DNA from: Escherichia phage PJNS034
DNA length: 64,000 nt
Strand: one strand, 5' to 3'
Sequence record: PP391266.1
Of the stretch, positions 6,138-47,331 are shown in pieces. Numbering within the stretch: position 1 is the first letter of the stretch; each line of letters opens with the position of its first letter. Below the pieces are notes generated by a model. It saw nothing but the letters and a program-made list of their open reading frames with translations. It searched no databases and was not told where the DNA came from. The translations under genes were made by a program, and so were the position numbers.

Positions 6138-6215
6138 CTTGATGTAGCTCAGTTTGGTAGCAGCACTTGCTTTGGGAGCAAGGGGTCGAAGGTTCGAATC
6201 CTTCCATCAAGACCA
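6138..6215 (+). tRNA. tRNA-Pro (anticodon TGG)
   Basis: Manual cloverleaf: 7-bp acceptor CTTGATG/CATCAAG, anticodon arm CTTGC-TTTGGGA-GCAAG, T-arm GAAGG-TTCGAAT-CCTTC, 3' CCA. Confidence 0.7.
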
Positions 6216-6216
6216 A

Positions 6217-6298
6217 GTGGGATTGGCTGAGTGGTCGAAAGCACCTGACTGTAAATCAGGCATATCACGCGGTGGTTCGAATCCATCATCCCACACCA
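6217..6298 (+). tRNA. tRNA-Tyr (anticodon GTA)
   Basis: Acceptor GTGGGAT/ATCCCAC, anticodon arm CCTGA-CTGTAAA-TCAGG, long variable arm, TTCGAAT T-loop, CCA. Confidence 0.7.
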
Positions 6299-6300
6299 AA

Positions 6301-6377
6301 GCGTCACTAACTCAATTGGTTAGAGTAGCGGTCTTTTAAACCGCAGGTTCTGAGTTCGAGTCTCAGGTGGCGTACCA
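6301..6377 (+). tRNA. tRNA-Lys (anticodon TTT)
   Basis: Anticodon arm GCGGT-CTTTTAA-ACCGC, T-arm CTGAG-TTCGAGT-CTCAG, CCA. Confidence 0.7.
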
Positions 6378-6379
6378 AA

Positions 6380-6469
6380 GGAAGTTAGGGCTTTGTGGAA
6401 AGCAATCGGTCTTGAAAACCGACCCACTGTAGCGATATGGTGATGGTTCGACTCCATTAGCTTCCTCCA
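6380..6469 (+). tRNA. tRNA-Ser (anticodon TGA)
   Basis: Anticodon arm TCGGT-CTTGAAA-ACCGA, long variable arm, TTCGACT T-loop, CCA. Confidence 0.65.
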
Positions 6470-6471
6470 AT

Positions 6472-6548
6472 TGTTTCGTAGCTCAGTTGGTAAGAGCGTT
6501 CGGCTGATAACCGAAAGGTCACAAGTTCGAGTCTTGTCGAAACAACCA
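6472..6548 (+). tRNA. tRNA-Ile (anticodon GAT)
   Basis: Canonical cloverleaf: TGTTTCG/CGAAACA acceptor, GCTC-AGTTGGTAA-GAGC D-arm, TTCGG-CTGATAA-CCGAA, TTCGAGT T-loop, CCA. Confidence 0.8.
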
Positions 6549-6551
6549 AAT

Positions 6552-6640
6552 GACGGGTTGGCAGAGTTGGTTTATTGCAGCAGCTTGCTAAGTTGCCGAG
6601 TCGAAAGGCTCCGTGGGTTCGAATCCCACACCCGACGCCA
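6552..6640 (+). tRNA. tRNA-Ser (anticodon GCT)
   Basis: Anticodon arm GCAGC-TTGCTAA-GTTGC, long variable arm, GTGGG-TTCGAAT-CCCAC, CCA; one acceptor mismatch. Confidence 0.55.
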
Positions 6641-6641
6641 A

Positions 6642-6717
6642 GGACGATAAGCACATGTGGATGTGCGGCAGGCTGTTAACCTGATGGCAGTTGGTTCGAA
6701 TCCAACATCGTCCGCCA
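6642..6717 (+). tRNA. tRNA-Asn (anticodon GTT)
   Basis: Acceptor GGACGAT/ATCGTCC, loop CTGTTAA, T-arm GTTGG-TTCGAAT-CCAAC, CCA. Confidence 0.6.
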
Positions 6718-6719
6718 AT

Positions 6720-6794
6720 AGCGAGATAGTTCAGTGGTAGAATATCGGTTTCATACGCCGACCGTCGATGGTTCGATTCCATCTCTCGCTACCA
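6720..6794 (+). tRNA. tRNA-Met (anticodon CAT; elongator, initiator or lysidine-Ile not distinguishable)
   Basis: Acceptor AGCGAGA/TCTCGCT, anticodon arm TCGGT-TTCATAC-GCCGA, T-arm GATGG-TTCGATT-CCATC, CCA. Confidence 0.65.
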
Positions 6795-6810
6795 AACCTC
6801 TTTATCCGAT

Positions 6811-6882
6811 GGGAGTGTCCTTCTGGGAAGGATGTGGATTCCAACCCCACTAAGTAGAGTTCGATTCTTTACACTCCCGCCA
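6811..6882 (+). tRNA. tRNA, anticodon TCC (Gly) or alternatively CCA (Trp) depending on stem register
   Basis: Acceptor GGGAGTG/CACTCCC, loop region GGATTCCAACCCC, T-arm TAGAG-TTCGATT-CTTTA, CCA. Confidence 0.5.
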
Positions 6883-6889
6883 AATCCCT

Positions 6890-6966
6890 AGCCTTGTAGT
6901 GTAGTCTGGTTAGCACACGTGACTTTGACTCACGGAGCTTAGGTTCGAATCCTGACAGGGCTGCCA
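6890..6966 (+). tRNA. tRNA-Gln (anticodon TTG)
   Basis: Acceptor AGCCTTG/CAGGGCT, anticodon arm CGTGA-CTTTGAC-TCACG, T-arm TTAGG-TTCGAAT-CCTGA, CCA. Confidence 0.7.
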
Positions 6967-13987: not shown

Positions 13988-14024
13988 AGCCCCAAGGGAT
14001 TTCTCCCAAGGGGCTTTTCTTTTA
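13988..14024. terminator. convergent (bidirectional) terminator hairpin
   Basis: AGCCCCAAGGGA-TTTC-TCCCAAGGGGCT with T-rich flanks on both strands, between converging + and - arms. Confidence 0.5.
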
Positions 14025-17000
14025 CGCCATTCCTGCCACAGAACCACCGAGATTCATGTACTCTGCAAGGTTAGTGCCGTAAGCATCAGTTGCTCGTAAG
14101 TTACGAGACTGGAGAGCTTTCTTAACAGCACCATGACCAAGCAAGTGAGCAGAAGCTCGGATGCCTTCCATAGTTACCGGAACACCATCAATAGTCTGAC
14201 CGATGTACTGGTCAAGACCCATGTTTTTGGTACGACGGTCTAACATCTTATTCCAATCTTCAAAAGCCTTTTCCTGTGCTTCTGGAGAGTTCAGGAACTC
14301 CTCTTTCGAGTTAACCCCATACTTACCAGTCCAGTTAGACTTCTCGTTCAGAATAGATTTCTGACCACGACCAACACGACCTTGTGACTTGATAATACCT
14401 AAGTCAACAAGAGCAGGCCATCCAAATTGGTACTTACCGACATAACCGAGAGTGTTCTCGATATCGTACTTACCACCGGATTCACGCTGGCCTAACACGT
14501 CACCATATGCACTCATCATACCTCCTGCATAAGCGCTACCAGCAAACATAGAAGTCAGACCAATTGCACTCAAACCTAATTTCTTAGCCAGTGCATTAGC
14601 TGATTTCTCGTTACGGGCATAACGAACGATAGTTTCTTTATCAGGGTCAACCATCGCATACTCATAGCCTTTATCAAAGGCTACCTCTGGTGAATCAACA
14701 CCTTCTGCCAGTTCGTATGGGTTTACCACTTTGATTTCTGGGTCAGATTCCAGTGCTTTACCATCCAGAGCTTCTGCTGCGGTGTCTACAACTTGCTTAA
14801 CCTGTTCGGTTGGCATGTCTTGCATAGCATCGAGCATATTCTCTACTGGTGCTTCTGGAGTAGGAGTCGGTTCAGGTTGTGGTTCAGTTACCACTGGTTC
14901 TTCACGTACTGGAGCAGCAAAGTCTTCCTCAGCCATAACTACTGGCTTCTGTACTGGTTCATCCATCATCGCCTTAGCAATTGGGGATTCATCAGCACGT
15001 AAGGCTTGTTTGTAGTCTTCCAGACTGTTGTAAACCTTCGGAGCACGTTCTGGGTCATACAGGCCGTAAGCAGATGCGATTGCTCGCTGGTTAGCTGGCC
15101 CCATATAGTTGGTAGTCTCACCTTTCCCGAACACTGCTTTAATCTGGTTACGCATGTCCATAGTGTACAGGCCGTTAGCCCCATTCACCATTTTATCGTA
15201 GCCTTTAGAGCGACGGTATTCGATAGCACCAAGTACATCACCCATCGTCTTCGCCTGAGTCATTACGTCAGTAACAGATTCAGAAGCCTTACCTGCGTTG
15301 ATTGCTTTCTTACCGAAGTTCTGAATTTGTTTCAGCATCGCATTGGATGCAGTAGCAATGTCAGCTTTCAGGGAATCAGCAATTGCAGCCACTTCTTCTG
15401 GAGTGTTACGGGCAATGATTTCATCCAACGATGCACGAGTCTGTGCAGCCGTTTCTTCCAGTGACTTAACTTGCTCTTTCAGTGCCTTGATTGGAGCATC
15501 CAGTTGAGTTGCTTTCTTCTCAAGAATTTCCAGCTTACGTTCGTGTGCTTCTTTGCGTTTCTGCTCAGCAGCTTGTTCACGTTTCTGTTTGTCTTGGAGA
15601 GCCTTCTCTTCCTTCGCCTGTTTATCACGGAGAGCTTTGTCAGCAGCTTCTTGCTTATCGTGCATCTTCTGATATTCAGCAGCCAGTTTACGTTGTTCAC
15701 GTTCCCAAGCCATATCAGCTTTCTCACGAGCAGCTTCGTCTTTCGCTTGAGCTTTCGCTTCATCACGTTTAACACGAGCAGCATCTAACAGTTCTTTCTC
15801 ACGGGCTTTGAAAGCAGCAATTTCCTCAGCATGTGAATCACGCTGTAAACGTTCTTCTGCACGTTGAGTTTCTTTCAGACGTTTCTGTTCAGCACTTGCT
15901 TGTTCTTTCTTCAGACGGTCGCCACGTTGTAACAGCTTGTTAGCAGTTGCACGAAGTTCTTTCTGAGTCAGTGGAGCAGTAGAGCCGAAGGTCTGTGCTT
16001 CAACAACTTGTAATGCTTGTTCTTTCGGAATGCCAAGTGAATCAGCAAAGTCCATCAGGTTTTCATGCTGAGCATAAATCTGATTAACTGCATCATCTTC
16101 AGCTTTACGGGCTACAGTCTCTTCTGGAGTCTCAGCACCTTTAGCCAGAGCATCACGCTCACGTTGCATTGCCTTAATCAGTGAAGCCTTCTCACTATTC
16201 GTAAGCTGACGCATAGAGCCAGTTACAGGGTCAATGTAAGGTGAAGTCAGGTCGTCCATTACGAACTGGTCAAGGCCGTACTTACTTGCCAAACCGGAAA
16301 TATGTTCGTTCTGGGTTGTGATGTTTTTAGCTGCTTCATCACGGATACCTGCTTTAACTTCCTCTGCCTCTGTCTTAGCTTTCTCAGCCTGTGCATTACG
16401 AGCTTCCTCACGAGCACGTTGAGCCAATTCAGTAATCTCACCAGCATCACGGATGTTAGCGATTTGGTCTTCCGGTACACCTGCACGACGAGCACGTTCT
16501 TCCAATGCTTGACGTTCAACTTGTGCTGCACGGTTACGAATGGTTTCAGTTTCACGAATAGCTGCACCCAATACTGCATCCAGACCACGAGGTGCTGGAG
16601 CATTTGGAGCAGGAGCCGCTGGAGTAGGTTCACCAGTTGCCAGTGCTTGCAGGTCAGATGGGTCACGAACTACAGGGGCAGGTTCTGGAACAACAGTAGG
16701 CTCTACAACCGTTGGTTCAGGAGTACGAGCGTATTCCATTGAAGCCAGAGATTGTAATGCTGCTTGTTCTTCTGCACGACTAATGAATCGAGCAGCCTGT
16801 TCAGAGTTAACTTCCGCAATCTGAGCATCAGACCAACCTTTGTTACGAAGCACTTCTGCCTGTACAGGAGAAACACCACCATCAGGTGCTGGCTGAGTCA
16901 TTTCTGGAGTAACAACTGGTTCAGGAGTTACAGTCTGTTCTGGAGCTACAGGTGGTACATCTGGAGTCGGCTCTGGAGCAACATCTGCTGGTGGCGGAGT

Positions 17001-18854
17001 TGGTTCTTCTGGAGCACGAGCAGCCATAACACGGTTCTGAGCATCTGAGTCACGAGCGATTGCACGTAAGCCTTCGAAGTCCTGAGCCATACGAGCACGA
17101 GCTTTACCTTCACGAGAACGAGCGATGATACCCGGTAATTCAGTTGCACCGAAGGTTTTCAGAGCTACTACTGGCTTAGCCACTTTACCGATTGTCGCTG
17201 GTTGTGAAGCATAATCTTCAATACCGTAACGATAAGCAGGGTCTTGGTTTGCCAACATCTTATCTTTGTAGATAAAGGATGCAGCATTCATTGCTGGGTT
17301 AAAACCTTTGTCACCAACAGTGAAACCATAGGTATCAAGTTGACGAGAGAGGTTTTCAGCACGTTGACCAATTGCATCGTAAATCAGTGAACGGTCAGAA
17401 GCGGTATCACGCATTGCTTTCACAATAGCGTTTGCATCGTTCATCATGTTACGCAGATTACGTTGCTGAGATATAGAAGCAGCAGGGTCAATCTCACCCA
17501 TATCTTGACGCAGTTTCAGTTCCTGAATTGAATCATTCAACTGGTTAACTACATCTTCGAAAGCTGATACGTCTTGTGCTTGTGCTTTCTTACCATTACG
17601 ACGGGCAGTAGCCAATTCTTCTGGAGAGAACACGCGAGAACCGAAGTCCAAGTCACCAAGTGCTGATGCACCTGAAATCTTACGACGACGAGCAGCAGAG
17701 CGAATGTCACCTTCAGTCAGACCCATCATAGCTGCGGCAGAGCCGTAATCATCAGACAGTTCAGACAAGCCACGTTTCACACCAATGTCACGCATTGCTT
17801 CTGGAGAAATATCAACACCAGCATCTTTCAAATCACCAAACGCTTTATAGAAAGCAGATGGGCCGATGTTTTCATTTACCTGAGCACGTTCCGTTACCAG
17901 TGCTTCACGCTGTTCTGGAGTAAGGTCTTTACCTACGAGGCTATTCAGTTCTTCATCACGGTGAAGGTTACGCATAGCTTCAACTTGGTCACGTTCAGTC
18001 AGGGCTGGATTACCACCTGCTTCACGGATGTTACGGTCATTACGACCTGCAAAGCTACGAACTGCTGGAGCAATTTCCATTGGGGCACGAATACCACCAG
18101 AAACCAGACCACCAGTTACTGCATAATCCAACAGGTTTTGTGGGTCAACAGCAAGTTCCTGACGACGACCCATTTCGTATGCTGCACCAGAAGCGCCTGC
18201 ACCGATTGCACCAGTTGCTACGGTTTCCGCCATTCGTCCAAGAGCAGTTTTACCGACAGTTGCAAAAGGCTTCCCATAGGGAATAAGCCCTAGAGCGGCT
18301 GCGGCAGTACCAGCAGTACGAGCGATATCCGTGTTACCAGCACCCTCTTGTTCAGCGTAGATAGAACCAGTGGTAGGGCCATATGAAGTAGCACCGAATG
18401 CTAAGTCACCAGCCATTGTTGGTAAGCCAGATGCAGTTTGTTCTGCAACAAACGTACCCAAGTCACCTAAACCACGAATGTCACGCCAGTTTTCCACGGC
18501 ATAACGTTGGTTCTTCTCACCATGCTCACGTAACTTACGGGCAAGTTCACGGTCATGATAAGACTGTTTAGTAACTTCACCTTCTTGCGTCTGACCAGCT
18601 TTCTGAGCCAAATCAGCCTGACGTGCTGCTGCTGCACCAAACAAACCTGATGCCAGTTCAGTACGTCCACGAGTAAACGCATTAGAGATGTTACCGAAGA
18701 ATCCACGGTCTTCTGTTGGAGCTTCTTGTACAGGCAGGGGAGCCTGAGAGATGTTTTGTTCCTGAGCCATTGGGACATTGCCCGTAGGTTGTGGAGAGCC
18801 ACCGCTTCCACTTTCCAATTGACGCAGTAATTCTGGGTCTGTAATTGGAGTCAT
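14022..18854 (-). CDS. large virion protein (tape-measure/internal-core-like) with C-terminal lytic transglycosylase-like domain
   Basis: 1610 aa; Pro-rich linkers, long Lys/Glu coiled-coil, C-terminal RESGG...GYVGKYQFG resembling SLT E-S...G-x-x-G-x-x-Q-F catalytic block (compare T7 gp16 N-domain). Confidence 0.55.
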   Translation of the reverse strand: MTPITDPELLRQLESGSGGSPQPTGNVPMAQEQNISQAPLPVQEAPTEDRGFFGNISNAFTRGRTELASGLFGAAAARQADLAQKAGQTQEGEVTKQSYHDRELARKLREHGEKNQRYAVENWRDIRGLGDLGTFVAEQTASGLPTMAGDLAFGATSYGPTTGSIYAEQEGAGNTDIARTAGTAAAALGLIPYGKPFATVGKTALGRMAETVATGAIGAGASGAAYEMGRRQELAVDPQNLLDYAVTGGLVSGGIRAPMEIAPAVRSFAGRNDRNIREAGGNPALTERDQVEAMRNLHRDEELNSLVGKDLTPEQREALVTERAQVNENIGPSAFYKAFGDLKDAGVDISPEAMRDIGVKRGLSELSDDYGSAAAMMGLTEGDIRSAARRRKISGASALGDLDFGSRVFSPEELATARRNGKKAQAQDVSAFEDVVNQLNDSIQELKLRQDMGEIDPAASISQQRNLRNMMNDANAIVKAMRDTASDRSLIYDAIGQRAENLSRQLDTYGFTVGDKGFNPAMNAASFIYKDKMLANQDPAYRYGIEDYASQPATIGKVAKPVVALKTFGATELPGIIARSREGKARARMAQDFEGLRAIARDSDAQNRVMAARAPEEPTPPPADVAPEPTPDVPPVAPEQTVTPEPVVTPEMTQPAPDGGVSPVQAEVLRNKGWSDAQIAEVNSEQAARFISRAEEQAALQSLASMEYARTPEPTVVEPTVVPEPAPVVRDPSDLQALATGEPTPAAPAPNAPAPRGLDAVLGAAIRETETIRNRAAQVERQALEERARRAGVPEDQIANIRDAGEITELAQRAREEARNAQAEKAKTEAEEVKAGIRDEAAKNITTQNEHISGLASKYGLDQFVMDDLTSPYIDPVTGSMRQLTNSEKASLIKAMQRERDALAKGAETPEETVARKAEDDAVNQIYAQHENLMDFADSLGIPKEQALQVVEAQTFGSTAPLTQKELRATANKLLQRGDRLKKEQASAEQKRLKETQRAEERLQRDSHAEEIAAFKAREKELLDAARVKRDEAKAQAKDEAAREKADMAWEREQRKLAAEYQKMHDKQEAADKALRDKQAKEEKALQDKQKREQAAEQKRKEAHERKLEILEKKATQLDAPIKALKEQVKSLEETAAQTRASLDEIIARNTPEEVAAIADSLKADIATASNAMLKQIQNFGKKAINAGKASESVTDVMTQAKTMGDVLGAIEYRRSKGYDKMVNGANGLYTMDMRNQIKAVFGKGETTNYMGPANQRAIASAYGLYDPERAPKVYNSLEDYKQALRADESPIAKAMMDEPVQKPVVMAEEDFAAPVREEPVVTEPQPEPTPTPEAPVENMLDAMQDMPTEQVKQVVDTAAEALDGKALESDPEIKVVNPYELAEGVDSPEVAFDKGYEYAMVDPDKETIVRYARNEKSANALAKKLGLSAIGLTSMFAGSAYAGGMMSAYGDVLGQRESGGKYDIENTLGYVGKYQFGWPALVDLGIIKSQGRVGRGQKSILNEKSNWTGKYGVNSKEEFLNSPEAQEKAFEDWNKMLDRRTKNMGLDQYIGQTIDGVPVTMEGIRASAHLLGHGAVKKALQSRNLRATDAYGTNLAEYMNLGGSVAGMA

Positions 18855-18920
18855 TTAAAGTCCTCACTCGTTAGGTCGTTTTAGAGAGTTTATTGGGTAA
18901 TTATACACCGTACTCTACAA

Positions 18921-34718: not shown

Positions 34719-34754
34719 TATTTTAAGCTTCTAGCGTCCGAAGGGAATAATAGG
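34719..34754. promoter_or_regulatory. conserved intergenic element, copy B
   Basis: TATTTTAAGCTTCTAGCGTCCGAAGGGAATAATAGGG, 35/37 identical to copy A. Confidence 0.45.
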
Positions 34755-38550: not shown

Positions 38551-40731
38551 TTATTGTGGAAGTGTGGTTGTTGGTTTGCGAGTTCCCATAGACAGGGCTA
38601 CAGGTCGCTGTTGAGCCATTTCAAGTTGAGCTTCAATCTCAATCTGACGAGCCTTGAGGTCTAACTCTTGCTTCATCAGCTCAAGCTCCAGCATCTTGAG
38701 TTCCAGCTTACGTTCTTCAAGTTCCAATCCACGTTCAGCAACAAACGAATCACTAGCCATCTTACTCTGACGAGATTCAGATTCAGCTTGGTCAATGTTC
38801 ATCTTATCACCTGCAACCGCTTCATCCAACTCAGCACGTTTCAGCTTAGCTTGCGCTTCCATCTGCTCAGCCTGCATACGACCAGTTGCAACTTCCATCT
38901 CATTCTGAATCTTCTGGAGTTCAAGTTGAACACGTTGTGATTCGAGTTCGATACGTTGCTGCTCAGCTTGCTGTTCTGGAGTCGGGCCTTGAGGTTGAAC
39001 TTGTTCCATCGGAGTGATGAAGTTGTTCACATCATAGAATCCCATTGCCAGTGTAAGTTCACGAGCAAGGTGGTTTGCATTCTCAGCGGTGAAAGTAGTA
39101 CCAGCCAGTAACGGGTTCTGGGTCAAGAACTGAGAGAGTTGTACAAGGTTGTTAGCACGTTCACGACGTTCGTTCTGACCAATCGCAACTGCAACAATCA
39201 CTTTGTCTCGGTCAGGCCAATTCGCTGGCATGACTTCCTTCATCTCACCATTAACTTCAATACGGAGGGTGTTTGTTTCACTCTCTTTCAGAAGACGGTA
39301 GATAGCAAGGAACAGTTGAGTCATGAAGTTCTGAGCGATGTTACGAGCAACCATACGCATACGGTTCTGTGCAGCACTCATCATCATATCAACAGTAGCG
39401 TAGCTGTTGTCGTTCTTAAACACTTCAGGGGACAAGCCCATGCCGATACGGGTTACACCAGTACGACGTTCTTTAGCTTGTTCGATTTGTTCAAGGATAT
39501 TATCAACACCTGCTGGCAGGGGGTGATGTGGGAACAGGTCTACCATCCCTACAGCATTCTCTTCTACTACACCACCCGGACGGTTATCCAGAAGGGAGCG
39601 CTTATCATACTGACCTTTAACAGCACGGAAGCGACCATAGTTAGCAGACATGATGTTATCAATGTAACCACGAACCAGTGCAGTCTTAACGTTCTGAATG
39701 TCACGAGTAATATCGAAGACTGACTCACCAATGATGCTGCCCGGAACAGGGAATGGGGTACAGACGTCGAATGGAATCTCACTCACTTCCTCGTAACTGA
39801 CAATCTGGTTGTTCACTTGGAACACCTGATACAGACGAGTCTTACGTCCTTTCAGATTAGTACGAACATAGACTTCATCTACGATGTACTTCTCAAAGTC
39901 ACGTGGGTCGCCAAAGTCCAGACCAGTCATGTCTTGGTCACGAGTCATTTCGATATCTTCTGCCACAAGGTCAGTTGAACCTGCACGAGCACGTTCGATA
40001 TCTTCTTCATCAAAGCCAAGGTCTACCAGTTCGTTACGAGTCTTCTGAACACGATGGCGGAAGTATGAACATTCCTGAATATTCTTGGAGAATTGGTCGA
40101 AGTCGATTTCCTCAGCGGGAACAAACTCAACACGTACACCAGAGGTATTCACTGGAATGGAGATAGTAGCAGAAACAGTACCATCGTCATTCTTCTCAAT
40201 CGTCAACATTGAATCGTCAACTTCATCATTGTCGTCATATTCAGACAGGATGATTTTCAGTTCGTCTTCAGTGACATGCTCCACCTTACGAACGTCTTGT
40301 TCAACAGAATGCTGCCAGTAACGTTTAACAAACGAAACTTTAGACAGGAGACACTCTTTGAATGCGTCGTGAAGTGTGATGTAACCGGGGTTGTCACGCA
40401 GCAGAACTTTGTTAACCATTGCAGTAGCAGCACGGGCACCATCTGCATCGTAACTGTTTAGAGGAGCAAATCGAACAGCATCTTCACCTGATGTAAATAC
40501 ATTGAGCAGGTCTTGAAGAGTACCGTTAACTGATTCCCATACAGTTCGGTCAACATAAGAACTACCACCGCGAGTATAAGCAGCAGGAAGTTCACCATAG
40601 TAATACTTGTATGCCTCCTTGATTGATTCACCCAACTTACCTTCCGTAATCGTCAGACTACGACCAGTAAATTGGGTGATGGCTGACTTGAGTTTAGTTA
40701 ACTCTTTCGTGTCACGTTTAATCGCCATCAC
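38551..40731 (-). CDS. portal protein
   Basis: 726 aa, directly downstream of terminase large subunit, C-terminal Gln/Glu coiled-coil. Confidence 0.6.
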   Translation of the reverse strand: MMAIKRDTKELTKLKSAITQFTGRSLTITEGKLGESIKEAYKYYYGELPAAYTRGGSSYVDRTVWESVNGTLQDLLNVFTSGEDAVRFAPLNSYDADGARAATAMVNKVLLRDNPGYITLHDAFKECLLSKVSFVKRYWQHSVEQDVRKVEHVTEDELKIILSEYDDNDEVDDSMLTIEKNDDGTVSATISIPVNTSGVRVEFVPAEEIDFDQFSKNIQECSYFRHRVQKTRNELVDLGFDEEDIERARAGSTDLVAEDIEMTRDQDMTGLDFGDPRDFEKYIVDEVYVRTNLKGRKTRLYQVFQVNNQIVSYEEVSEIPFDVCTPFPVPGSIIGESVFDITRDIQNVKTALVRGYIDNIMSANYGRFRAVKGQYDKRSLLDNRPGGVVEENAVGMVDLFPHHPLPAGVDNILEQIEQAKERRTGVTRIGMGLSPEVFKNDNSYATVDMMMSAAQNRMRMVARNIAQNFMTQLFLAIYRLLKESETNTLRIEVNGEMKEVMPANWPDRDKVIVAVAIGQNERRERANNLVQLSQFLTQNPLLAGTTFTAENANHLARELTLAMGFYDVNNFITPMEQVQPQGPTPEQQAEQQRIELESQRVQLELQKIQNEMEVATGRMQAEQMEAQAKLKRAELDEAVAGDKMNIDQAESESRQSKMASDSFVAERGLELEERKLELKMLELELMKQELDLKARQIEIEAQLEMAQQRPVALSMGTRKPTTTLPQ

Positions 40732-40740
40732 CGCTCCTAA

Positions 40741-42240
40741 TTAATAAGCGTTATTGAAGTTATTCCAGTTGTCATTATAACTCATTGAGCCATTAAGTCC
40801 AGCATGTTCTGAAATACCTCGATGGGTAACAGACAATGCTGCATAACGCATAGCATCCACAGAGTCATCTTCGACCTTTTTAATCTTACCTTCTTTACGT
40901 TGGTAAGAGCGCATTTCTTCGAAGATTTTATGACAAGTGTTGAAGATTTTGAATCGACCGGTTTTCATTCGCTGGAGAATTTCCATGATGCCGGGTTCAA
41001 CAAAGTTATTTTTCTTCCCATCAAACCCGATTGGGTTGTAGAAAGTGTCTGGCTGTACGTTCACACCAGCTTCACGATAGTACATAGCAACACTACGTCC
41101 AGAACCACGTTCAACGTTGTCAGCGTCGTGAGGCAGAACAACAGGAATCCAAGTCCCTCGTTGGTTAATGGCGTGTGCGTGGATGGCTGGGATGCCTTCG
41201 GCTGCTGCATAGTGGTCATAGATGTAAATCGTGTCTGTATCGACGTCATAAGCCGCCCAAGAAGCCGCAGTATCGTGGTTGATACCGATATCAACACCAC
41301 ATACACGAGGCCAATGGTCTGGAATTTTGAAGGGTTCCACCTTAATGGATTCTTCACTAACTGGATACACGAGTCCGCTCCCCAAGATTGGTAAACCTTT
41401 AGAACGCATGTCATGTTGCCACTCAGGAATAGACGCCAGAAGCTCTTTCTTCGTCTCTTCACTCAGGTGAGGTGCATCATCCCACGTTGCGTTCTGCCAA
41501 TACAGTGCTCCAGACTCATCATTCATGAACTTCTTAACCAGTTCAGTCAGACCGTTCTCAGGAGTAGCTGTGATAGTTACAAGACCGCCTGTAGTAGCTG
41601 TACGAGTAACACATTGTGCATAAATCTGCATTGAACGATAAGGGTCTTCTTCGTCAATCCAGATAAAATCAACTGTAGCACCCATCAGAACGTGTTCACC
41701 CTGCTGGGTAGAACGAAATTCGATAGTGCTGTAACCATCTTGACGTCCTTTCGCATCAAAATGCTTAATTCGACAGGCCAGAATACGTTGACCGTCTTTT
41801 GCCAGCGAATCAAAGTCGATATATTTCTTCGGAATAGCACCAGTACCAATAGCTTTTGTATCACGCACGTCAGCAGTACCGAACAATTCCTTCTGAAGCA
41901 CCTTCTGGGTTGATTCACCAGTAATACCAACACACCAAGCTAGAATCGGCTTCTCAAAACGATGCCCATCCCACCAATCCTTATATACGCCTGTAAGGTG
42001 CTGAGACACTTCCTGTGCCTCTGAAAAGGATTTACCAATACGGTTAGCTGCACAAAGAAAACGTCGCTTAAAACGCTTCCCAGCCGCATAGAAATCGCGT
42101 TGGAATTTGTAAGGTTTGAAGTAATCCAGCGAGTTGTAGCGTTGATACTGCTCTCGCATCTGGATTAGCTCCAGTAACTCAATCTTGTCGTCAGGAGATA
42201 AGGCTGACAGGTCGAGTCCTTGCAGAATTTCATCAATCAT
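40741..42240 (-). CDS. terminase large subunit
   Basis: 499 aa; Walker A CAANRIGKS, Walker B DFIWIDEE, C-terminal RNase-H-like nuclease block GVDIGINHD. Confidence 0.85.
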   Translation of the reverse strand: MIDEILQGLDLSALSPDDKIELLELIQMREQYQRYNSLDYFKPYKFQRDFYAAGKRFKRRFLCAANRIGKSFSEAQEVSQHLTGVYKDWWDGHRFEKPILAWCVGITGESTQKVLQKELFGTADVRDTKAIGTGAIPKKYIDFDSLAKDGQRILACRIKHFDAKGRQDGYSTIEFRSTQQGEHVLMGATVDFIWIDEEDPYRSMQIYAQCVTRTATTGGLVTITATPENGLTELVKKFMNDESGALYWQNATWDDAPHLSEETKKELLASIPEWQHDMRSKGLPILGSGLVYPVSEESIKVEPFKIPDHWPRVCGVDIGINHDTAASWAAYDVDTDTIYIYDHYAAAEGIPAIHAHAINQRGTWIPVVLPHDADNVERGSGRSVAMYYREAGVNVQPDTFYNPIGFDGKKNNFVEPGIMEILQRMKTGRFKIFNTCHKIFEEMRSYQRKEGKIKKVEDDSVDAMRYAALSVTHRGISEHAGLNGSMSYNDNWNNFNNAY

Positions 42241-42460
42241 AGAAGCCTCTCACTTCTGTATCGACGGCTCGACACCGCCAACCTTTAACTTTCACATCAC
42301 AGTGCATTAAAAGGGTTAAGTCTTCATCCTTAATCCCTTGTTCCAGAGCAAATTTTCGAGGGTGGCTGACGACGACATGTTCAAATGGGTCAGCATCCTT
42401 GTAGAACTCATAGGTGCGTACAGTCAGAATACCATCATCCGAGTAAATCATCGCCAGCAC
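42233..42460 (-). CDS. hypothetical protein
   Basis: 75 aa ORF between terS and terL. Confidence 0.3.
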   Translation of the reverse strand: MLAMIYSDDGILTVRTYEFYKDADPFEHVVVSHPRKFALEQGIKDEDLTLLMHCDVKVKGWRCRAVDTEVRGFYD

Positions 42461-42463
42461 CTC

Positions 42464-42919
42464 TTAGTTACTTTCTGGAACAGCAACAGTCAGCTTAATA
42501 CCAGCCAACTTGTCTGCAATCATCTTGTCCAGCTCTTCAGCAGTCAGTTCTTCATCATTCTTAATGTCCACTTCAACAGAAGCAGCTTTAGGATAGACGA
42601 TATCGACCAGCTTCATAGCAGCCATCAGACGCTCTTTAGGAGTAGCTGTGGGGCTTTCCATCACATCAATGAGGTATTCATCAGGGCGAATACGAGCGTT
42701 TGCTATAGCGTCTAACATTTGCTGTGTGAGCTTGTTACGGGAGCCTTTCTTACGACCGCGACCAAAATTATTGCCGGGTAAGAAGGTGTTTTTGACAAGA
42801 TTTCGACCTTTCGAGCAGGGATGGCCTTCTTCACTGAAAAATTCAATGGTTTTGCCTTTATACTCGTCTCCTACGCTGAGATGAGAGTAATCATCCACAT
42901 AAGTCTTTTCATTAGACAT
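42464..42919 (-). CDS. putative terminase small subunit
   Basis: 151 aa, basic GRGRKKGSRNK region, first gene of late arm. Confidence 0.4.
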   Translation of the reverse strand: MSNEKTYVDDYSHLSVGDEYKGKTIEFFSEEGHPCSKGRNLVKNTFLPGNNFGRGRKKGSRNKLTQQMLDAIANARIRPDEYLIDVMESPTATPKERLMAAMKLVDIVYPKAASVEVDIKNDEELTAEELDKMIADKLAGIKLTVAVPESN

Positions 42920-42920
42920 T

Positions 42921-43048
42921 CATGCCACCTAATAATGGGGTTAGTTGAAAGATACACTGTAAGATGGAACCATTCATGCCAGTTCATCTACATGCCATGT
43001 CATAAGTATACACTGATAAGAGGCTATCATGCCACCTCATACATGCCA
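42921..43048. repeat. five direct repeats of CATGCCA (minus strand TGGCATG) upstream of terS
   Basis: Copies at 42921, 42975, 42991, 43028, 43042 with similar flanks. Confidence 0.55.
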
Positions 43049-43103
43049 GTCCATACTTCTGTGGGGATATAGGTAAGAGATGCTACATCTTACACTACTT
43101 ATA

Positions 43104-43125
43104 CCTATTATTTCCCTTCGGAATA
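43104..43125 (-). promoter_or_regulatory. conserved intergenic element, copy D (inverted)
   Basis: Minus strand reads TATTCCGAAGGGAAATAATAGG; contains TATTCC-GAAG-GGAATA hairpin. Confidence 0.4.
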
Positions 43126-43793
43126 TAATGTTTAGGGTACAGGAAGAAGTGCCATATGACAAGACTTATTTACCAATTGAATTACAAATTCAGTGAATTT
43201 ATAAGTGTGAGATAACAAAGTGTGGATATTGCTCACTTTTTAACCAGAAACGTAAATTTCACTTGAGCGGTATGTGGCATATCAGCTTTAGCATAATGTT
43301 CAAAAAGGGGGAACGGGTTCCGCTCATGTTCCGGCGTGTGAATGAGGCGTGTAGACTACCACTAGCCCCTACCCTGAGTCAATACCCTCACTGGTCTGAT
43401 GAGTGTGACTGCTCAAGTAGTAACCGTGTGATGCCGTGTGATGAGTACCCATCGTGCATAGTTATTCATGATAATTTATTTTTGGATAGCCTGAATAAAT
43501 AATAGCCAGTGACCCGTTAGAATCTGCGTGCGTGTCTGATACTGCCTGAGTTATACCTCCATAACGCCAACGTTTAAACGGTGTATTGATAACGGGTAAC
43601 AAGCCAGCGACAAGTGAATAAATATTCCAAGAGATAGCATATCTAATCAATCTATCTTCTCTTTATTCCTTTTACAGTGTAATTCTTATTTGTTTATAAG
43701 TAATAATTCTCCTCGACCTATTGACAATTACCGTCGAGTAAATTACGCGTGTGTTTCATTACGTCTTAAAGAAATGATTTGTTTGTTTTGCTA

Positions 43794-43821
43794 TTGACTT
43801 TTTAACTCATTCGTTTAATAT
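43794..43821 (+). promoter_or_regulatory. sigma70-like promoter candidate
   Basis: TTGACT, 16-17 nt spacer, TAATAT. Confidence 0.4.
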
Positions 43822-43876
43822 AGCTCCCCGTTGAAACGCAGAACATCGCGGAGTAAACAAGTTAATCACTAAGTGG

Positions 43877-43905
43877 TTGACTGAATCGGGTTAGTATGTT
43901 TTAAT
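43877..43905 (+). promoter_or_regulatory. sigma70-like promoter candidate
   Basis: TTGACT, 17 nt spacer, TTTAAT. Confidence 0.35.
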
Positions 43906-44086
43906 GCTTACCGATTCAAACGCTCTTTAAAAATGTGGTCTGTCTTTAGGTGGTGTTTAACATCATTACTACAAGGCGCTTAGTTAGTTATCTGGTTTTG
44001 ATTCCTGTTTCATTAGTGATTCAGGCGGATTGATAAAGCATCTTCAATAAGTCTTTAACAGTTCGATACTTCGAAGAAATTAACGA

Positions 44087-44114
44087 TTGACAGCGTACTA
44101 GATTCCTGTAAGAT
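44087..44114 (+). promoter_or_regulatory. sigma70-like promoter candidate
   Basis: TTGACA, 16 nt spacer, TAAGAT. Confidence 0.4.
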
Positions 44115-44232
44115 AGACCACGTTTTAACGCTCTTTAACAATATGAATCATTAACGCTTAAACGTTAGTTTAATCAGACGTTATCAAGTGAAGCTGAAAA
44201 GTAACACGATAACAAATGATGAAAATAAACGG

Positions 44233-44260
44233 TTGACAGCGTGAAATGATTCGGTATAAT
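44233..44260 (+). promoter_or_regulatory. strong sigma70-like early promoter
   Basis: Consensus TTGACA, 16 nt spacer, consensus TATAAT, about 480 nt upstream of first early gene. Confidence 0.6.
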
Positions 44261-44741
44261 GAGCGCCATCGAATGACAGAACGTTGTCAGACGATAGCCG
44301 GATAAGTGGATAACTTATAACGGCAGTTCGATAAAGTAGTGTGGTAGCGGGTAGCGGTATGTAACACGGATAATCTACGGATTAACGGCTTATTTGTTGC
44401 TTGCTTAAAGCATAAAACGTCGGGCGGCACGATGGGAGAAGTGCATAAAATCAATTAGGCTCCCTGACTCTTTAACAATTAGGAAACTACGCACCACAAT
44501 TAACGTTGGATAACGTAAAGAGTGGGTTAATTTAGGGTGATTCCCTGCGTAGGCTTGTCGAGCTGATAACAGCGGTATGTGATGGACGCTTATATACTCC
44601 CTCCATGATAGTGTATGACTGATTCCACCTAGGCCAAAGTGAAAGGGCGATAACGAATAGCAAGTAACAATCTCGTTTGATATGGGCATTTAATAGTGAG
44701 TGTCCAGATTAAACGATAAAACTGAATTGAGGATTAAACCT

Positions 44742-45718: not shown

Positions 45719-45979
45719 ATGGCTGCGGGATATTTAGGCGGTGATTGTGTACACGGTGAGATTCAAGCCGTTGTAGATAACGCCGTTGACTTTGCCCGTT
45801 CTCAATTGAATTGTGGCGAGTCAGAAATGTTTTGTCTTGAATGTGATGAAGAAATCCCACAAGCAAGGCGTGAGGTTGCGAAAGGCTGCAAGTATTGTAT
45901 TACCTGCCAGTCTAAGCACGATAGAAAACAAGCCAGCCAATTCAACAGGCGAGGCAGTAAAGATAGTCAATTGAGGTAA
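45719..45979 (+). CDS. TraR/DksA-family C4 zinc-finger protein
   Basis: CLEC-x17-CITC spacing matches TraR/DksA C-x2-C-x17-C-x2-C finger. Confidence 0.5.
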   Translation: MAAGYLGGDCVHGEIQAVVDNAVDFARSQLNCGESEMFCLECDEEIPQARREVAKGCKYCITCQSKHDRKQASQFNRRGSKDSQLR

Positions 45980-47246: not shown

Positions 47247-47263
47247 AAGCCCAAGCGTCCGAA

Positions 47264-47331
47264 GGGAATATTACTAAGAAATAATATAAGAAAGATTATA
47301 TCTAACTATATTACTTCTTATTAATATTCCC
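47264..47331 (+). repeat. long inverted repeat: 17-bp stem (1 mismatch) with 34-nt AT-rich loop
   Basis: GGGAATATTACTAAGAA ... TTCTTATTAATATTCCC; left arm overlaps conserved element copy C. Confidence 0.55.

What the first reader, a model, noticed from the sequence alone, without database searches (positions are those of the whole stretch)
42921..43048. Five direct repeats of CATGCCA immediately upstream of the terminase small-subunit gene
Within about 130 bp just upstream of the terS start, the heptamer CATGCCA (TGGCATG on the coding strand) recurs five times with similar flanks; the first copy overlaps the terS ribosome-binding site. Repeat arrays next to terS are typical of terminase recognition sites (pac or cosB-like) or of binding sites for a late-gene activator.
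Basis: partly seen in the sequence, partly recalled or inferred. Interest (0 to 1): 0.5.

Follow-up and report, generated by a model that had tools for sequence, protein, structure and literature searches.

The report
Repeat-studded late promoter upstream of terminase
The five heptamer repeats are real and conserved in related phages. They most likely belong to a duplicated control region (promoter plus protein-binding repeats) that switches on the phage's packaging and head genes, rather than marking the site where the genome is cut for packaging. This makes it a moderately interesting variant of an ordinary kind of element.

Summary
Observation confirmed. CATGCCA (TGGCATG on the terS-sense minus strand) occurs five times in 42921-43048. 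This is the only such cluster in the window and in the closest relative, Pantoea phage TacPo2.

The real unit is larger than the heptamer. It is a ~55-nt module holding two TGGCATG copies followed by a pyrimidine-rich "TCTTAYCAGTGTAT" box, and it is present twice in tandem.

Nine loci (about five lineages) with TerS 55-96% identical keep GGCATG copies in the same orientation, and most copies are paired with a CAG(T/C)G box. The RBS-overlapping copy is not conserved.

The boxes closely resemble the experimentally defined late promoters of phiEco32, and they sit at homologous positions (upstream of the terS homolog and of the giant virion gene). The array keeps a fixed distance to the first late start codon (54-64 nt). 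Its distance to a conserved element that aligns with the phiEco32 terminal repeat varies from 100 to 563 nt.

Best reading (about 0.5): tandem late promoters whose -30 to -55 regions carry GGCATG direct repeats bound by a sigma-like or activator protein. A TerS/pac recognition site remains a rival (about 0.2).

Open puzzle: no homolog of the phiEco32 sigma factor gp36 or its co-activator gp79 is detectable. The terS assignment itself is only weakly supported.

The parts
43042..43048 (-). TGGCATG copy 5 (distal copy of upstream module A)
   Evidence: Conserved as AGGCATG in TacPo2 and GGGCATG in L004.
43028..43034 (-). TGGCATG copy 4 (proximal copy of module A). It ends 12 nt upstream of CAGTG in box A.
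   Evidence: Identical in TacPo2 and L004.
43006..43021 (-). Box A, TCTTATCAGTGTATAC: promoter-like core. Compare phiEco32 P26, CTTCTATAATGTATATA.
   Evidence: (CAGTGTAT occurs exactly only twice in the window).
42991..42997 (-). TGGCATG copy 3 (distal copy of downstream module B)
42975..42981 (-). TGGCATG copy 2 (proximal copy of module B). It ends 15 nt upstream of CAGTG in box B and starts 61 nt upstream of the terS ATG.
   Evidence: The homologous copy lies 54-64 nt from the ATG in six of the nine loci.
42951..42964 (-). Box B, TCTTACAGTGTATC: the proximal promoter-like core. CAGTG starts 40 nt upstream of the terS ATG.
   Evidence: This distance is 33-43 nt in six of the nine loci.
42921..42927 (-). 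TGGCATG copy 1. It overlaps the Shine-Dalgarno AGGTGG of the terS-like gene and is probably incidental.
   Evidence: Not conserved: TGGCATT in TacPo2, absent in L007, L008 and L009.
42464..42919 (-). 151-aa gene, the putative small terminase subunit (homolog of phiEco32 gp6 and YF01 gp3). It is the first gene of the late block on the minus strand.
   Evidence: PMC9965538. Support is weak: no Pfam hit, AF2 pLDDT 64, no fold match.
40741..42240 (-). Large terminase subunit (Terminase_6N/6C). A conserved 75-aa ORF lies at 42233-42460 and the SU10-type portal gene at 38551-40731.
43062..43128 (-). Possible degenerate third module: GATGTAGCATC followed by TCTCTTACCTATATCC. Weak evidence.
   Evidence: Comparison by eye with module A. 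The MAFFT alignment of the three units is poor.
43230..43445 (-). Conserved block that is colinear with the phiEco32 terminal repeat. It holds CACACGG x2 (43424-43443), CATGAGC, TCCCCCTTTT (43303-43311, which is also a minus-strand terminator at 43311-43325) and the palindrome TATGCCACATA. The predicted right edge of the terminal repeat is near 43281.
   Evidence: This placement is an inference; local alignments to phiEco32 are not significant on their own.
18903..18911 (-). GGTGTATAAT box after a terminator and upstream of the 1610-aa gene. It is the positional counterpart of phiEco32 late promoter P26 and has no GGCATG nearby.

Best explanation
The region 42947-43060 (minus strand) is the control region of the late operon (packaging, head and tail genes). 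It consists of two tandem copies of a ~55-nt promoter module.

Each module has two parts:
- A core box, Y-rich plus CAGTGTAT, which is the counterpart of the AATGTA element centred at -11.5 in phiEco32 middle and late promoters.
- Upstream of the box, two direct TGGCATG repeats 14-16 nt apart. If the box is taken as the -10 region, the repeats cover roughly -30 to -55.

Proposed mechanism (inferred): a sequence-specific protein binds the GGCATG repeats and recruits or positions host RNA polymerase at the boxes. That protein would be either the -35-reading domain of an unrecognised phage sigma-like factor or a dedicated late activator. Transcription would then start ~12-14 nt downstream of CAGTG and produce a 20-30-nt leader ahead of the terS-like gene.

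What is shown: the repeat is real, it is conserved, it is coupled to the box, it is anchored to the start codon, and the box resembles validated promoters.

What is inferred: promoter activity, the transcription start site, the existence and identity of the binding protein, and activation rather than repression.

The RBS-overlapping fifth copy is probably coincidental.
For: 1. Conservation. GGCATG copies (1-6 per locus), always in the terS-sense orientation, persist in noncoding DNA upstream of the first late gene in nine loci (about five lineages) whose TerS is 55-96% identical, while the flanks diverge.

2. Coupling. 13 of 36 CAG(T/C)G sites in these noncoding regions have a GGCATG ending 3-26 nt upstream. 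Random placement gives 1.4 on average and at most 7 in 2000 permutations.

3. Anchoring to the gene. The proximal GGCATG lies 54-64 nt and the proximal CAGYG 33-43 nt from the first late ATG in six of the nine loci. The distance to the terminal-repeat-like TCCCCCTTTT element varies from 100 to 563 nt.

4. Resemblance to validated promoters.
- phiEco32 gp36-dependent promoters have the motif tAATGTATAtA/AATGTA at -11.5 (PMC4281155; PMC12276001).
- phiEco32 P26 reads CCTTCTATAATGTATATA. Window box A reads CCTCTTATCAGTGTATAC and box B reads CCATCTTACAGTGTATC.

5. Positional homology.
- phiEco32 has TGATAATGTAG directly upstream of gp6, the terS homolog.
- The window has GGTGTATAAT upstream of its 1610-aa gene, as P26 does upstream of phiEco32 gp26.

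6. No sigma-70 consensus promoter is found on the minus strand next to terS, so some non-canonical promoter is needed there.

7. In L014 an extra gene lies between the array and terS. The array stays upstream of that first gene of the block, and terS acquires its own TTGACA-N17-TACTCT promoter.
Against: 1. No gp36 or gp79 homolog is detectable in the window or in the complete TacPo2 genome. This was tested by tblastn, by profiles of gp36 relatives, and by a profile search of 1.84 billion proteins followed by BLAST and HMM searches back against the window ORFs.

2. The spacing between GGCATG and the box is loose (12-24 nt, and 3-4 nt for the distal pairs in L007 and L008). This is not expected for a strict -35/-10 pair.

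3. The other late-promoter-like box, at 18903, has no GGCATG. The repeats are therefore not a general late-promoter element.

4. The sequence after CAGTG is not always -10-like: TCATCC in TacPo2 box B and CCAAAC in L007.

5. The whole ~100-nt core is more conserved among the three closest genomes than simple promoters would require.

6. There are no transcript data.
Confidence: 0.5

Rival explanations
1. Terminase recognition site (pac/cosB-like). The ring-shaped TerS encoded immediately downstream binds the TGGCATG direct repeats to nucleate the packaging complex at the concatemer junction. The CAGTGT boxes would be cleavage or nicking sites, or flank a short terminal repeat.
For: - The array is a unique site in the genome and lies adjacent to the putative terS.
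- It sits in the divergent noncoding region where Kuravirus-type genomes have their 193-bp terminal repeats.
- The predicted terminal-repeat edge is only ~230 nt away.
- The phiEco32 terminal repeat itself carries three ACGGGGA heptamers 13-15 nt apart.
- The T7 concatemer junction has CCTAAAG heptamer arrays, and it has CTATCAGTGTC, TCTCACAGTGTA and TGTTACAGTC boxes 90 nt before, and right at, the two terminal-repeat edges.
- The distance between the two window boxes (57 nt) is close to the 53-bp repeat reported by PhageTerm for SU7.
Against: - The array tracks the start codon, not the terminal-repeat-like element: 54-64 nt versus 100-563 nt.
- L014 has 4-5 modules. Only two cut sites would be needed.
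- L016 has a TerS with the same N-terminal domain but no GGCATG.
- TerL and TerS show no similarity to T7 gp19 and gp18, so the T7 resemblance is a post hoc analogy.
- A better counterpart of the phiEco32 terminal-repeat heptamers exists further upstream: CACACGG x2 at 43424-43443.
- The boxes match promoters validated in phiEco32.
Confidence: 0.2
2. Operator for negative control or autoregulation. The repeats bind a repressor (possibly TerS itself or an early protein) that keeps the late promoters off early in infection. Under this reading copy 1 at the RBS could add translational or roadblock control.
For: - The geometry is the same as in the best explanation: the repeats overlap the -30 to -55 region of both boxes, and box A's +1 region overlaps copy 3.
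- Copy 1 overlaps the SD in the window and in L004.
Against: - Copy 1 is lost in TacPo2 and in more distant relatives.
- Nothing distinguishes repression from activation computationally.
- No candidate repressor was identified.
Confidence: 0.12
3. Iteron-type replication origin or another DNA-organising site. The four 14-16-nt direct units next to an AT-rich TAAG-repeat stretch would bind an initiator.
For: - There are direct repeats next to AT-rich, repeat-rich DNA (43062-43130 in the window; TAAGGTATAG-type repeats in the relatives).
- The site is unique in the genome.
Against: - The units are shorter than typical iterons.
- No initiator gene was recognised among about 30 ORFs scanned.
- The fixed distance to the start codon and the coupling to promoter-like boxes are not expected for an origin.
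Confidence: 0.07
4. No function of the heptamer as such. A recent tandem duplication of a ~55-nt segment, plus an internal duplication, produced the copies.
For: The copies lie in a 53-56-nt periodic arrangement. Copy 1 is explained by the SD sequence.
Against: GGCATG survives in lineages whose surrounding sequence is unalignable (L007-L014), and with different copy numbers and spacings. This requires selection on the hexamer.
Confidence: 0.05

Closest known systems
phiEco32 (Kuravirus) gp36-dependent middle/late promoters, especially P26 and the promoter upstream of gp6
   Same: - There is a single conserved element around -11.5 (AATGTA/tAATGTATAtA), compared with AGTGTA(T) here.
- A pyrimidine-rich stretch lies just upstream (CCTTCTAT compared with CCTCTTAT).
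- The genomic positions are the same: upstream of the terS homolog and of the giant virion gene.
   Different: - No gp36 or gp79 homolog is present.
- The phiEco32 promoters carry no GGCATG repeats. Upstream of gp6 the -35 region is the descending arm of a terminator hairpin.
- Here the promoter module is duplicated in tandem.
Activator-dependent phage promoters with repeats replacing the -35 element (lambda cII sites TTGC-N6-TTGC at pRE; T4 MotA boxes at -30)
   Same: Short direct repeats or boxes lie over the -30 to -55 region of a promoter that lacks a sigma-70 -35 hexamer, and they are used for a temporal switch. (The properties of these families are from my own knowledge.)
   Different: - The repeat sequence differs, as does the spacing (14-16 nt, about 1.5 helical turns).
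- The binding protein is unknown.
- The repeats occur at only one locus of the genome.
TerS-binding repeat arrays: lambda cosB R1-R3, SPP1 pacL/pacR boxes, P1 pac hexamers
   Same: These are arrays of short direct repeats close to or inside the small-terminase gene, unique in the genome. (The properties of these families are from my own knowledge.)
   Different: - Those arrays flank a mapped cleavage site. Here the predicted terminal repeat is ~230 nt or more away, and the array is anchored to the start codon.
- Binding has not been tested.
Short heptamer repeats flanking the T7 terminal repeat (CCTAAAG arrays), and the ACGGGGA repeats in the phiEco32 terminal repeat
   Same: Heptamer direct repeats lie at irregular 13-16-nt spacing in the concatemer-junction region of a phage with short terminal repeats. 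T7 also has CAGTGT-type boxes at the repeat edges.
   Different: - The sequences differ and the terminase proteins show no homology.
- The function of the T7 and phiEco32 repeats is itself unknown.

Membership tests
phiEco32-type (gp36-dependent) late promoter | AATGTA-like element where -11.5 would fall, with a conserved context | tested here: met
   AGTGTA(T) is present in both boxes. Of the 17 aligned positions, 14 match between box A and phiEco32 P26 when one gap is allowed. Variants in the relatives are AGCGTA and AGTGTC.
phiEco32-type (gp36-dependent) late promoter | The phage encodes the gp36 sigma factor (and the gp79 co-activator) | tested here: not met
   - tblastn found nothing.
- gp36-family HMMs against all ORFs of the window and of complete TacPo2 gave a best E of 0.1-0.8.
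- Pfam and PHROG scans of about 30 ORFs found no sigma domains.
phiEco32-type (gp36-dependent) late promoter | Located upstream of the same late genes as in phiEco32 | tested here: met
   The boxes lie upstream of the gp6/terS homolog and of the giant virion gene.
phiEco32-type (gp36-dependent) late promoter | A late transcript starts 6-8 nt downstream of the motif | not testable with these tools
   No transcript data are available.
Terminase recognition site (pac/cosB) | Lies at or next to the packaging cleavage site or genome terminus | tested here: inconclusive
   - Termini cannot be mapped without reads.
- By colinearity with the phiEco32 terminal repeat, the edge is predicted near 43281, about 230 nt away.
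- The distance varies from 100 to 563 nt among relatives.
Terminase recognition site (pac/cosB) | Unique site in the genome | tested here: met
   It is the only CATGCC cluster in the window and in TacPo2.
Terminase recognition site (pac/cosB) | Bound specifically by TerS, with the motif co-varying with the TerS DNA-binding domain | tested here: inconclusive
   - Binding is not testable here.
- The motif is invariant across TerS proteins 55-96% identical.
- It is absent in L016, whose TerS keeps the same N-terminal domain.
Sigma-54 promoter (TGGCAC-N5-TTGC) | A GC dinucleotide (TTGC) 5 nt downstream of TGGCAY | tested here: not met
   The five copies are followed by GTATGAGGT, GATAGCCTC, GTAGATGAA, GAATGGTTC and GAATGTCTA. 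None has TTGC at the required spacing.
Sigma-70 promoter | TTGACA-like -35 element 16-18 nt from a TATAAT-like -10 element | tested here: not met
   The consensus scan finds no minus-strand site next to terS. TATACT and TATCTT follow CAGTG, but the -35 position holds GGCATG or ATGAAT.
Iteron-type origin | Three or more iterons of 17-22 bp, an AT-rich unwinding region, and a cognate initiator gene | tested here: inconclusive
   There are four 14-16-nt units next to AT-rich repeats. No initiator was recognised.

The most novel reading that the evidence does not exclude
TacPo2-like phages may have lost, or never had, the gp36/gp79 sigma system of their Kuravirus relatives while keeping gp36-type promoter cores. 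In that case the GGCATG direct repeats would be the docking site of an unrecognised late regulator, possibly TerS itself. Such a regulator could couple late transcription to initiation of packaging at the left end of a genome with short terminal repeats.
Probability: 0.15. Interest if true: 0.6.

Novelty: new variant of a known kind. Interest (0 to 1): 0.35.

Why it matters
For this uncharacterised lineage of C3-morphotype (Kuravirus-like) Pantoea and enterobacterial phages, the array marks the single control point of the ~29-kb late gene block.

If the promoter reading is right, the region provides:
- a compact, phage-specific regulatory cassette (GGCATG repeats plus a CAGTGTA core);
- a concrete handle for finding the missing late transcription factor. 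phiEco32-like promoter cores are present without a detectable gp36 sigma factor.

If the packaging reading is right, it would be the first candidate packaging signal for this phage group.

In either case it is a defined fragment for EMSA, pull-down and reporter experiments. It is not surprising in kind, because repeat arrays in phage control regions are common.

Tried and rejected
1. Rfam at gathering thresholds found only nine tRNAs and nothing in the region. TRF found no tandem array there, because the copies are interspersed.
2. A scan of viral contigs with the TerS protein found no relatives. Relatives came from the protein search plus contig look-ups.
3. Sigma-54 and sigma-70 readings of TGGCATG were rejected on spacing and consensus.
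4. Direct nucleotide homology between the phiEco32 concatemer junction and the window or relatives' noncoding regions did not exceed shuffled controls. Only short colinear motifs (ACACGG, CATNAGC, TCCCCCTTTT, AATTT) support the placement of the terminal repeat.
5. The search for the gp36 sigma factor and gp79 was negative.
6. Confirmation of TerS by structure failed. The AF2 model was poor (pLDDT 64), Foldseek against the PDB gave nothing, and only weak sequence-profile hits to PaP3-type TerS were found.
7. Homology to the T7 terminase proteins was absent, so the T7 box resemblance is kept only as an analogy.
8. A 15-17-codon mini-ORF starts at the ATG inside copy 4. Its end is frameshifted in L004 and its SD is not conserved (sequences), so it was dismissed.
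9. A third, degenerate module upstream (43062-43128) is suggested by eye but not by MAFFT.
10. No paper mentions TacPo2. The Pavlova 2012 promoter paper is not held in the library.

Full report
**1. The observation**

CATGCCA occurs on the + strand at 42921, 42975, 42991, 43028 and 43042. These are 5 of only 14 matches on both strands in the 64-kb window. On the minus strand, which is the coding strand of the gene at 42464-42919, the motif reads TGGCATG.

The flanks are also alike: 16-nt units are 75-88% identical, with consensus ATGRNNTGGCATGNAN.

In 100 first-order Markov simulations of the window, no 7-mer reached five copies within 130 nt (maximum 4, in 2 of 100). The only other real cluster of that kind is a coding repeat at 16903-17014.

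Copy 1 overlaps the Shine-Dalgarno AGGTGG and ends one base before the ATG.

**2. The anatomy is larger than a heptamer**

The minus strand reads:

...ATGGAC-TGGCATG-T-ATGAGG-TGGCATG-ATAGCC-TCTTATCAGTGTATAC-TT-ATGACA-TGGCATG-TAG-ATGAAC-TGGCATG-AATGGTTCCA-TCTTACAGTGTATC-TTTCAACTAACCCCATTATTAGG-TGGCATG-A-ATG.

- The four upstream heptamers form two pairs, 14 and 16 nt apart.
- Each pair is followed, after 12 or 15 nt, by a pyrimidine-rich CAGTGTAT box.
- CAGTGTAT occurs exactly only at these two places in the window.
- The feature is therefore a ~55-nt composite module present twice in tandem.

**3. Context**

*The phage.*
- The window is almost a whole phage genome. About 1.7 kb of the ~65.7-kb circular map is missing.
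- It is 81% identical to Pantoea phage TacPo2.
- It has an SU10/Kuravirus-type portal and a Terminase_6 large subunit.

*Gene layout.*
- Genes on the minus strand from 42919 down to 14022 form the structural (late) block.
- Genes on the plus strand start at 44700.
- Between the two lies a 1.78-kb ORF-free gap.

*The 151-aa gene.*
- It is homologous (46%) to phiEco32 gp6, the gene immediately upstream of TerL.
- The equivalent YF01 gp3 was called putative TerS from HHpred similarity to PaP3 TerS (PMC9965538).
- A profile of 22 homologs hits two PaP3-type TerS structures, but only at E = 0.018 and 0.047, colinearly over the oligomerisation region.
- There is no Pfam hit. The AlphaFold model is poor and Foldseek finds nothing.
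- 'terS' is therefore a reasonable but weakly supported label.

**4. Comparative evidence**

A protein search gave relatives at 51-96% identity. Their contigs were fetched.

*Conservation of GGCATG.*

| Locus | TerS identity | GGCATG copies upstream of the late block |
|---|---|---|
| TacPo2 | 95-96% | 4 |
| L004/5/6 | 93% | 4, plus the RBS copy |
| L007, L008 | about 70% | 2 |
| L009/10/11 | 69% | 3 |
| L012, L013 | 65-69% | 1-2, plus GGCATA/GGCATT variants |
| L014/15 | 55% | 4-5 |

- The copies persist in noncoding DNA upstream of the late block and are always in the terS-sense orientation, although the surrounding sequence becomes unalignable.
- L016 (51%) and phiEco32 have none.
- The RBS copy is TGGCATT in TacPo2 and absent from L007-L009, so it is not part of the conserved element.

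*Coupling to the box.*
- Nearly every GGCATG or GGCATG pair is followed by a Y-rich stretch plus CAG(T/C)G(T)A.
- 13 of 36 CAGYG sites have a GGCATG ending 3-26 nt upstream. Random placement gives 1.4 on average and at most 7 in 2000 permutations.
- The loci are related, so these are about five independent lineages rather than nine.

*L014.*
- L014 has 4-5 whole modules at a 50-70-nt period.
- They lie upstream of an inserted 126-aa gene rather than next to terS.
- terS there has its own TTGACA-N17-TACTCT promoter.

**5. What the boxes are**

- phiEco32 middle and late promoters are read by the phage sigma gp36 through a single element, tAATGTATAtA/AATGTA, centred at -11.5 (PMC4281155; PMC12276001).
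- The validated P26 promoter reads CCTTCTATAATGTATATA. Window box A reads CCTCTTATCAGTGTATAC and box B reads CCATCTTACAGTGTATC.
- phiEco32 has TGATAATGTAG right upstream of gp6, the terS homolog.
- The window has GGTGTATAAT, after a terminator, upstream of its 1610-aa gene. This is exactly where P26 sits relative to phiEco32 gp26.
- The boxes therefore match experimentally defined late promoters in both sequence and position.
- No sigma-70 consensus promoter is found for terS.

**6. Terminus or gene start?**

*A terminal-repeat-like block is conserved upstream.* Every GGCATG-bearing relative has exactly one TCCCCCTTTT in the upstream gap.
- Before it come ACACGG-type repeats and a CAT(T/G)AGC motif.
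- After it comes a conserved GTATGCCACATACC...GTGAAATTT block.
- The same order of motifs is seen in the 193-bp phiEco32 terminal repeat: ACACGGGG/ACGGGG x3 at 65-100, CATATGAGC, and TCCCCCTTTTT at 160-171, with the repeat ending at 193.
- In Kuraviruses, positions ~130-170 are the most conserved part of the repeat.
- By colinearity, the window's terminal repeat would end near 43281, about 230 nt upstream of the outermost heptamer.
- This is an inference. Unguided local alignments to phiEco32 are not significant.

*The array tracks the gene start, not this block.*
- The distance from TCCCCCTTTT to the array varies from 100 to 563 nt among relatives.
- The proximal GGCATG stays 54-64 nt, and the proximal CAGYG 33-43 nt, from the first late ATG in six of the nine loci.
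- The array is anchored to the gene start, not to the terminus-like element.

**7. Best explanation (about 0.5)**

The region holds tandem late promoters. The CAGTGTA boxes are the core elements, and the GGCATG direct repeats cover about -30 to -55, where they would bind a sigma-like -35-reading domain or an activator.

Weak points:
- No gp36 or gp79 homolog is found in the window or in complete TacPo2.
- The spacing between GGCATG and the box is loose (12-24 nt).
- The other late box, at 18903, lacks GGCATG.
- There are no transcript data.

**8. Rivals**

*TerS/pac site (about 0.2).* In favour:
- the site is unique in the genome;
- it lies adjacent to the putative terS;
- the predicted terminal repeat is nearby;
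- phiEco32 and T7 have heptamer arrays in their junctions;
- T7 has CAGTGT-type boxes at both terminal-repeat edges.

Against:
- the positional anchoring to the start codon;
- the 4-5 modules in L014;
- L016, which keeps the TerS N-terminal domain but has no GGCATG;
- the lack of terminase homology to T7.

*Other rivals.*
- A repressor or autoregulatory operator (about 0.12) cannot be separated from activation in silico.
- An iteron-type origin (about 0.07) and a functionless duplication (about 0.05) are disfavoured by the coupling, the anchoring and the deep conservation.
- The sigma-54 reading (TGGCAC-N5-TTGC) fails on the -12 element.

**9. Novelty and verdict**

This is a lineage-specific variant of a known kind of element: a phage late-promoter and operator region. 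The interesting twist is that phiEco32-type promoter cores occur without a detectable gp36 sigma factor and with an added GGCATG repeat element.

Interest is 0.35. Of its two interpretations, the late-activator option is the better supported, and the terminase-site option remains open.

Noticed in passing
window 43700-44500 (+ strand); phiEco32 NC_010324 73147-74273 (L003 648-1774, minus strand): The ORF-free gap carries a cluster of sigma-70 consensus promoters facing the plus-strand genes: TTGACA-16-TATAAT (12/12) at 44233-44260, TTGACA-16-TAAGAT at 44087-44114, and TTGACT-16-TAATAT at 43794-43821.

Three copies of GCTCTTTAACAA with at most 1 mismatch lie at 43922, 44130 and 44467. This sequence equals the E. 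coli rrn boxA antitermination box (from my own knowledge). They are the only matches of that quality in the window.

The noncoding early leader of phiEco32 has 6 such copies where 0.8 are expected. No held paper mentions boxA together with phiEco32. This may be rrn-type antitermination of early transcription.
   Followed up: partly
window 43921-44115: A ~190-nt noncoding stretch is 73-76% identical to an unannotated stretch in about 43 Kuravirus genomes (for example phiEco32 73978-74165). It spans the first boxA-like box and the next early promoter. This is unusually deep nucleotide conservation for noncoding DNA across genera.
   Followed up: partly
window 43230-43445 (minus strand); same block in TacPo2, L004, L007, L008, L009, L012, L013, L014: A conserved noncoding block holds CACACGG x2 (a tandem 10-mer at 43424-43443), then CATGAGC, then TCCCCCTTTT (also a minus-strand intrinsic terminator at 43311-43325), then the palindrome TATGCCACATA, then GTGAAATTT. 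The order of motifs is colinear with the phiEco32 193-bp terminal repeat, which suggests that the physical genome ends lie here.
   Followed up: partly
whole window; complete TacPo2 genome (L018+L019): No homolog of the phiEco32 sigma factor gp36 or of gp79 is detectable, even though phiEco32-like promoter cores are present. The profile used came from a search of 1.84 billion proteins. How late genes are transcribed in this lineage is unexplained.
   Followed up: yes
window 43108-43128, also near 47250-47270 and 34720-34740; L007, L009, L013 upstream regions: A hairpin motif, TCCGAAGGGAA(T)AATAGG (TTCC-GAAG-GGAA stem-loop), recurs in several intergenic regions in both orientations and is conserved upstream of the heptamer array in the relatives. 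It is followed by AT-rich TAAGGTATAG/TAAGAGATAG-type repeats. Its function is unknown.
   Followed up: no
T7 NC_001604 1-180 and 39679-39790 (L020, L021): The T7 concatemer junction has boxes resembling the window boxes: CCTATCAGTGTC about 90 nt before the terminal repeat, TCTCACAGTGTA at its first base, and ATCTGTTACAGTC immediately after its last base. phiEco32 has TGTACAGTGCT immediately before its repeat. This may be coincidence, because the terminase proteins show no similarity.
   Followed up: partly
window 16903-17014: There are five copies of TCTGGAG within 112 nt inside the 1610-aa minus-strand ORF (14022-18854). This is the only other five-copy 7-mer cluster in the window and is presumably a coding repeat.
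   Followed up: no
window 6138-6963: A cluster of nine tRNA genes lies on the plus strand. TacPo2 has eleven at the homologous place.
   Followed up: no
window 45719-45979: An 86-aa early gene encodes a TraR/DksA-type C4 zinc finger (Pfam zf-dskA_traR on the L004 homolog). Proteins of this family bind the RNA polymerase secondary channel, so it could take part in reprogramming host transcription.
   Followed up: no
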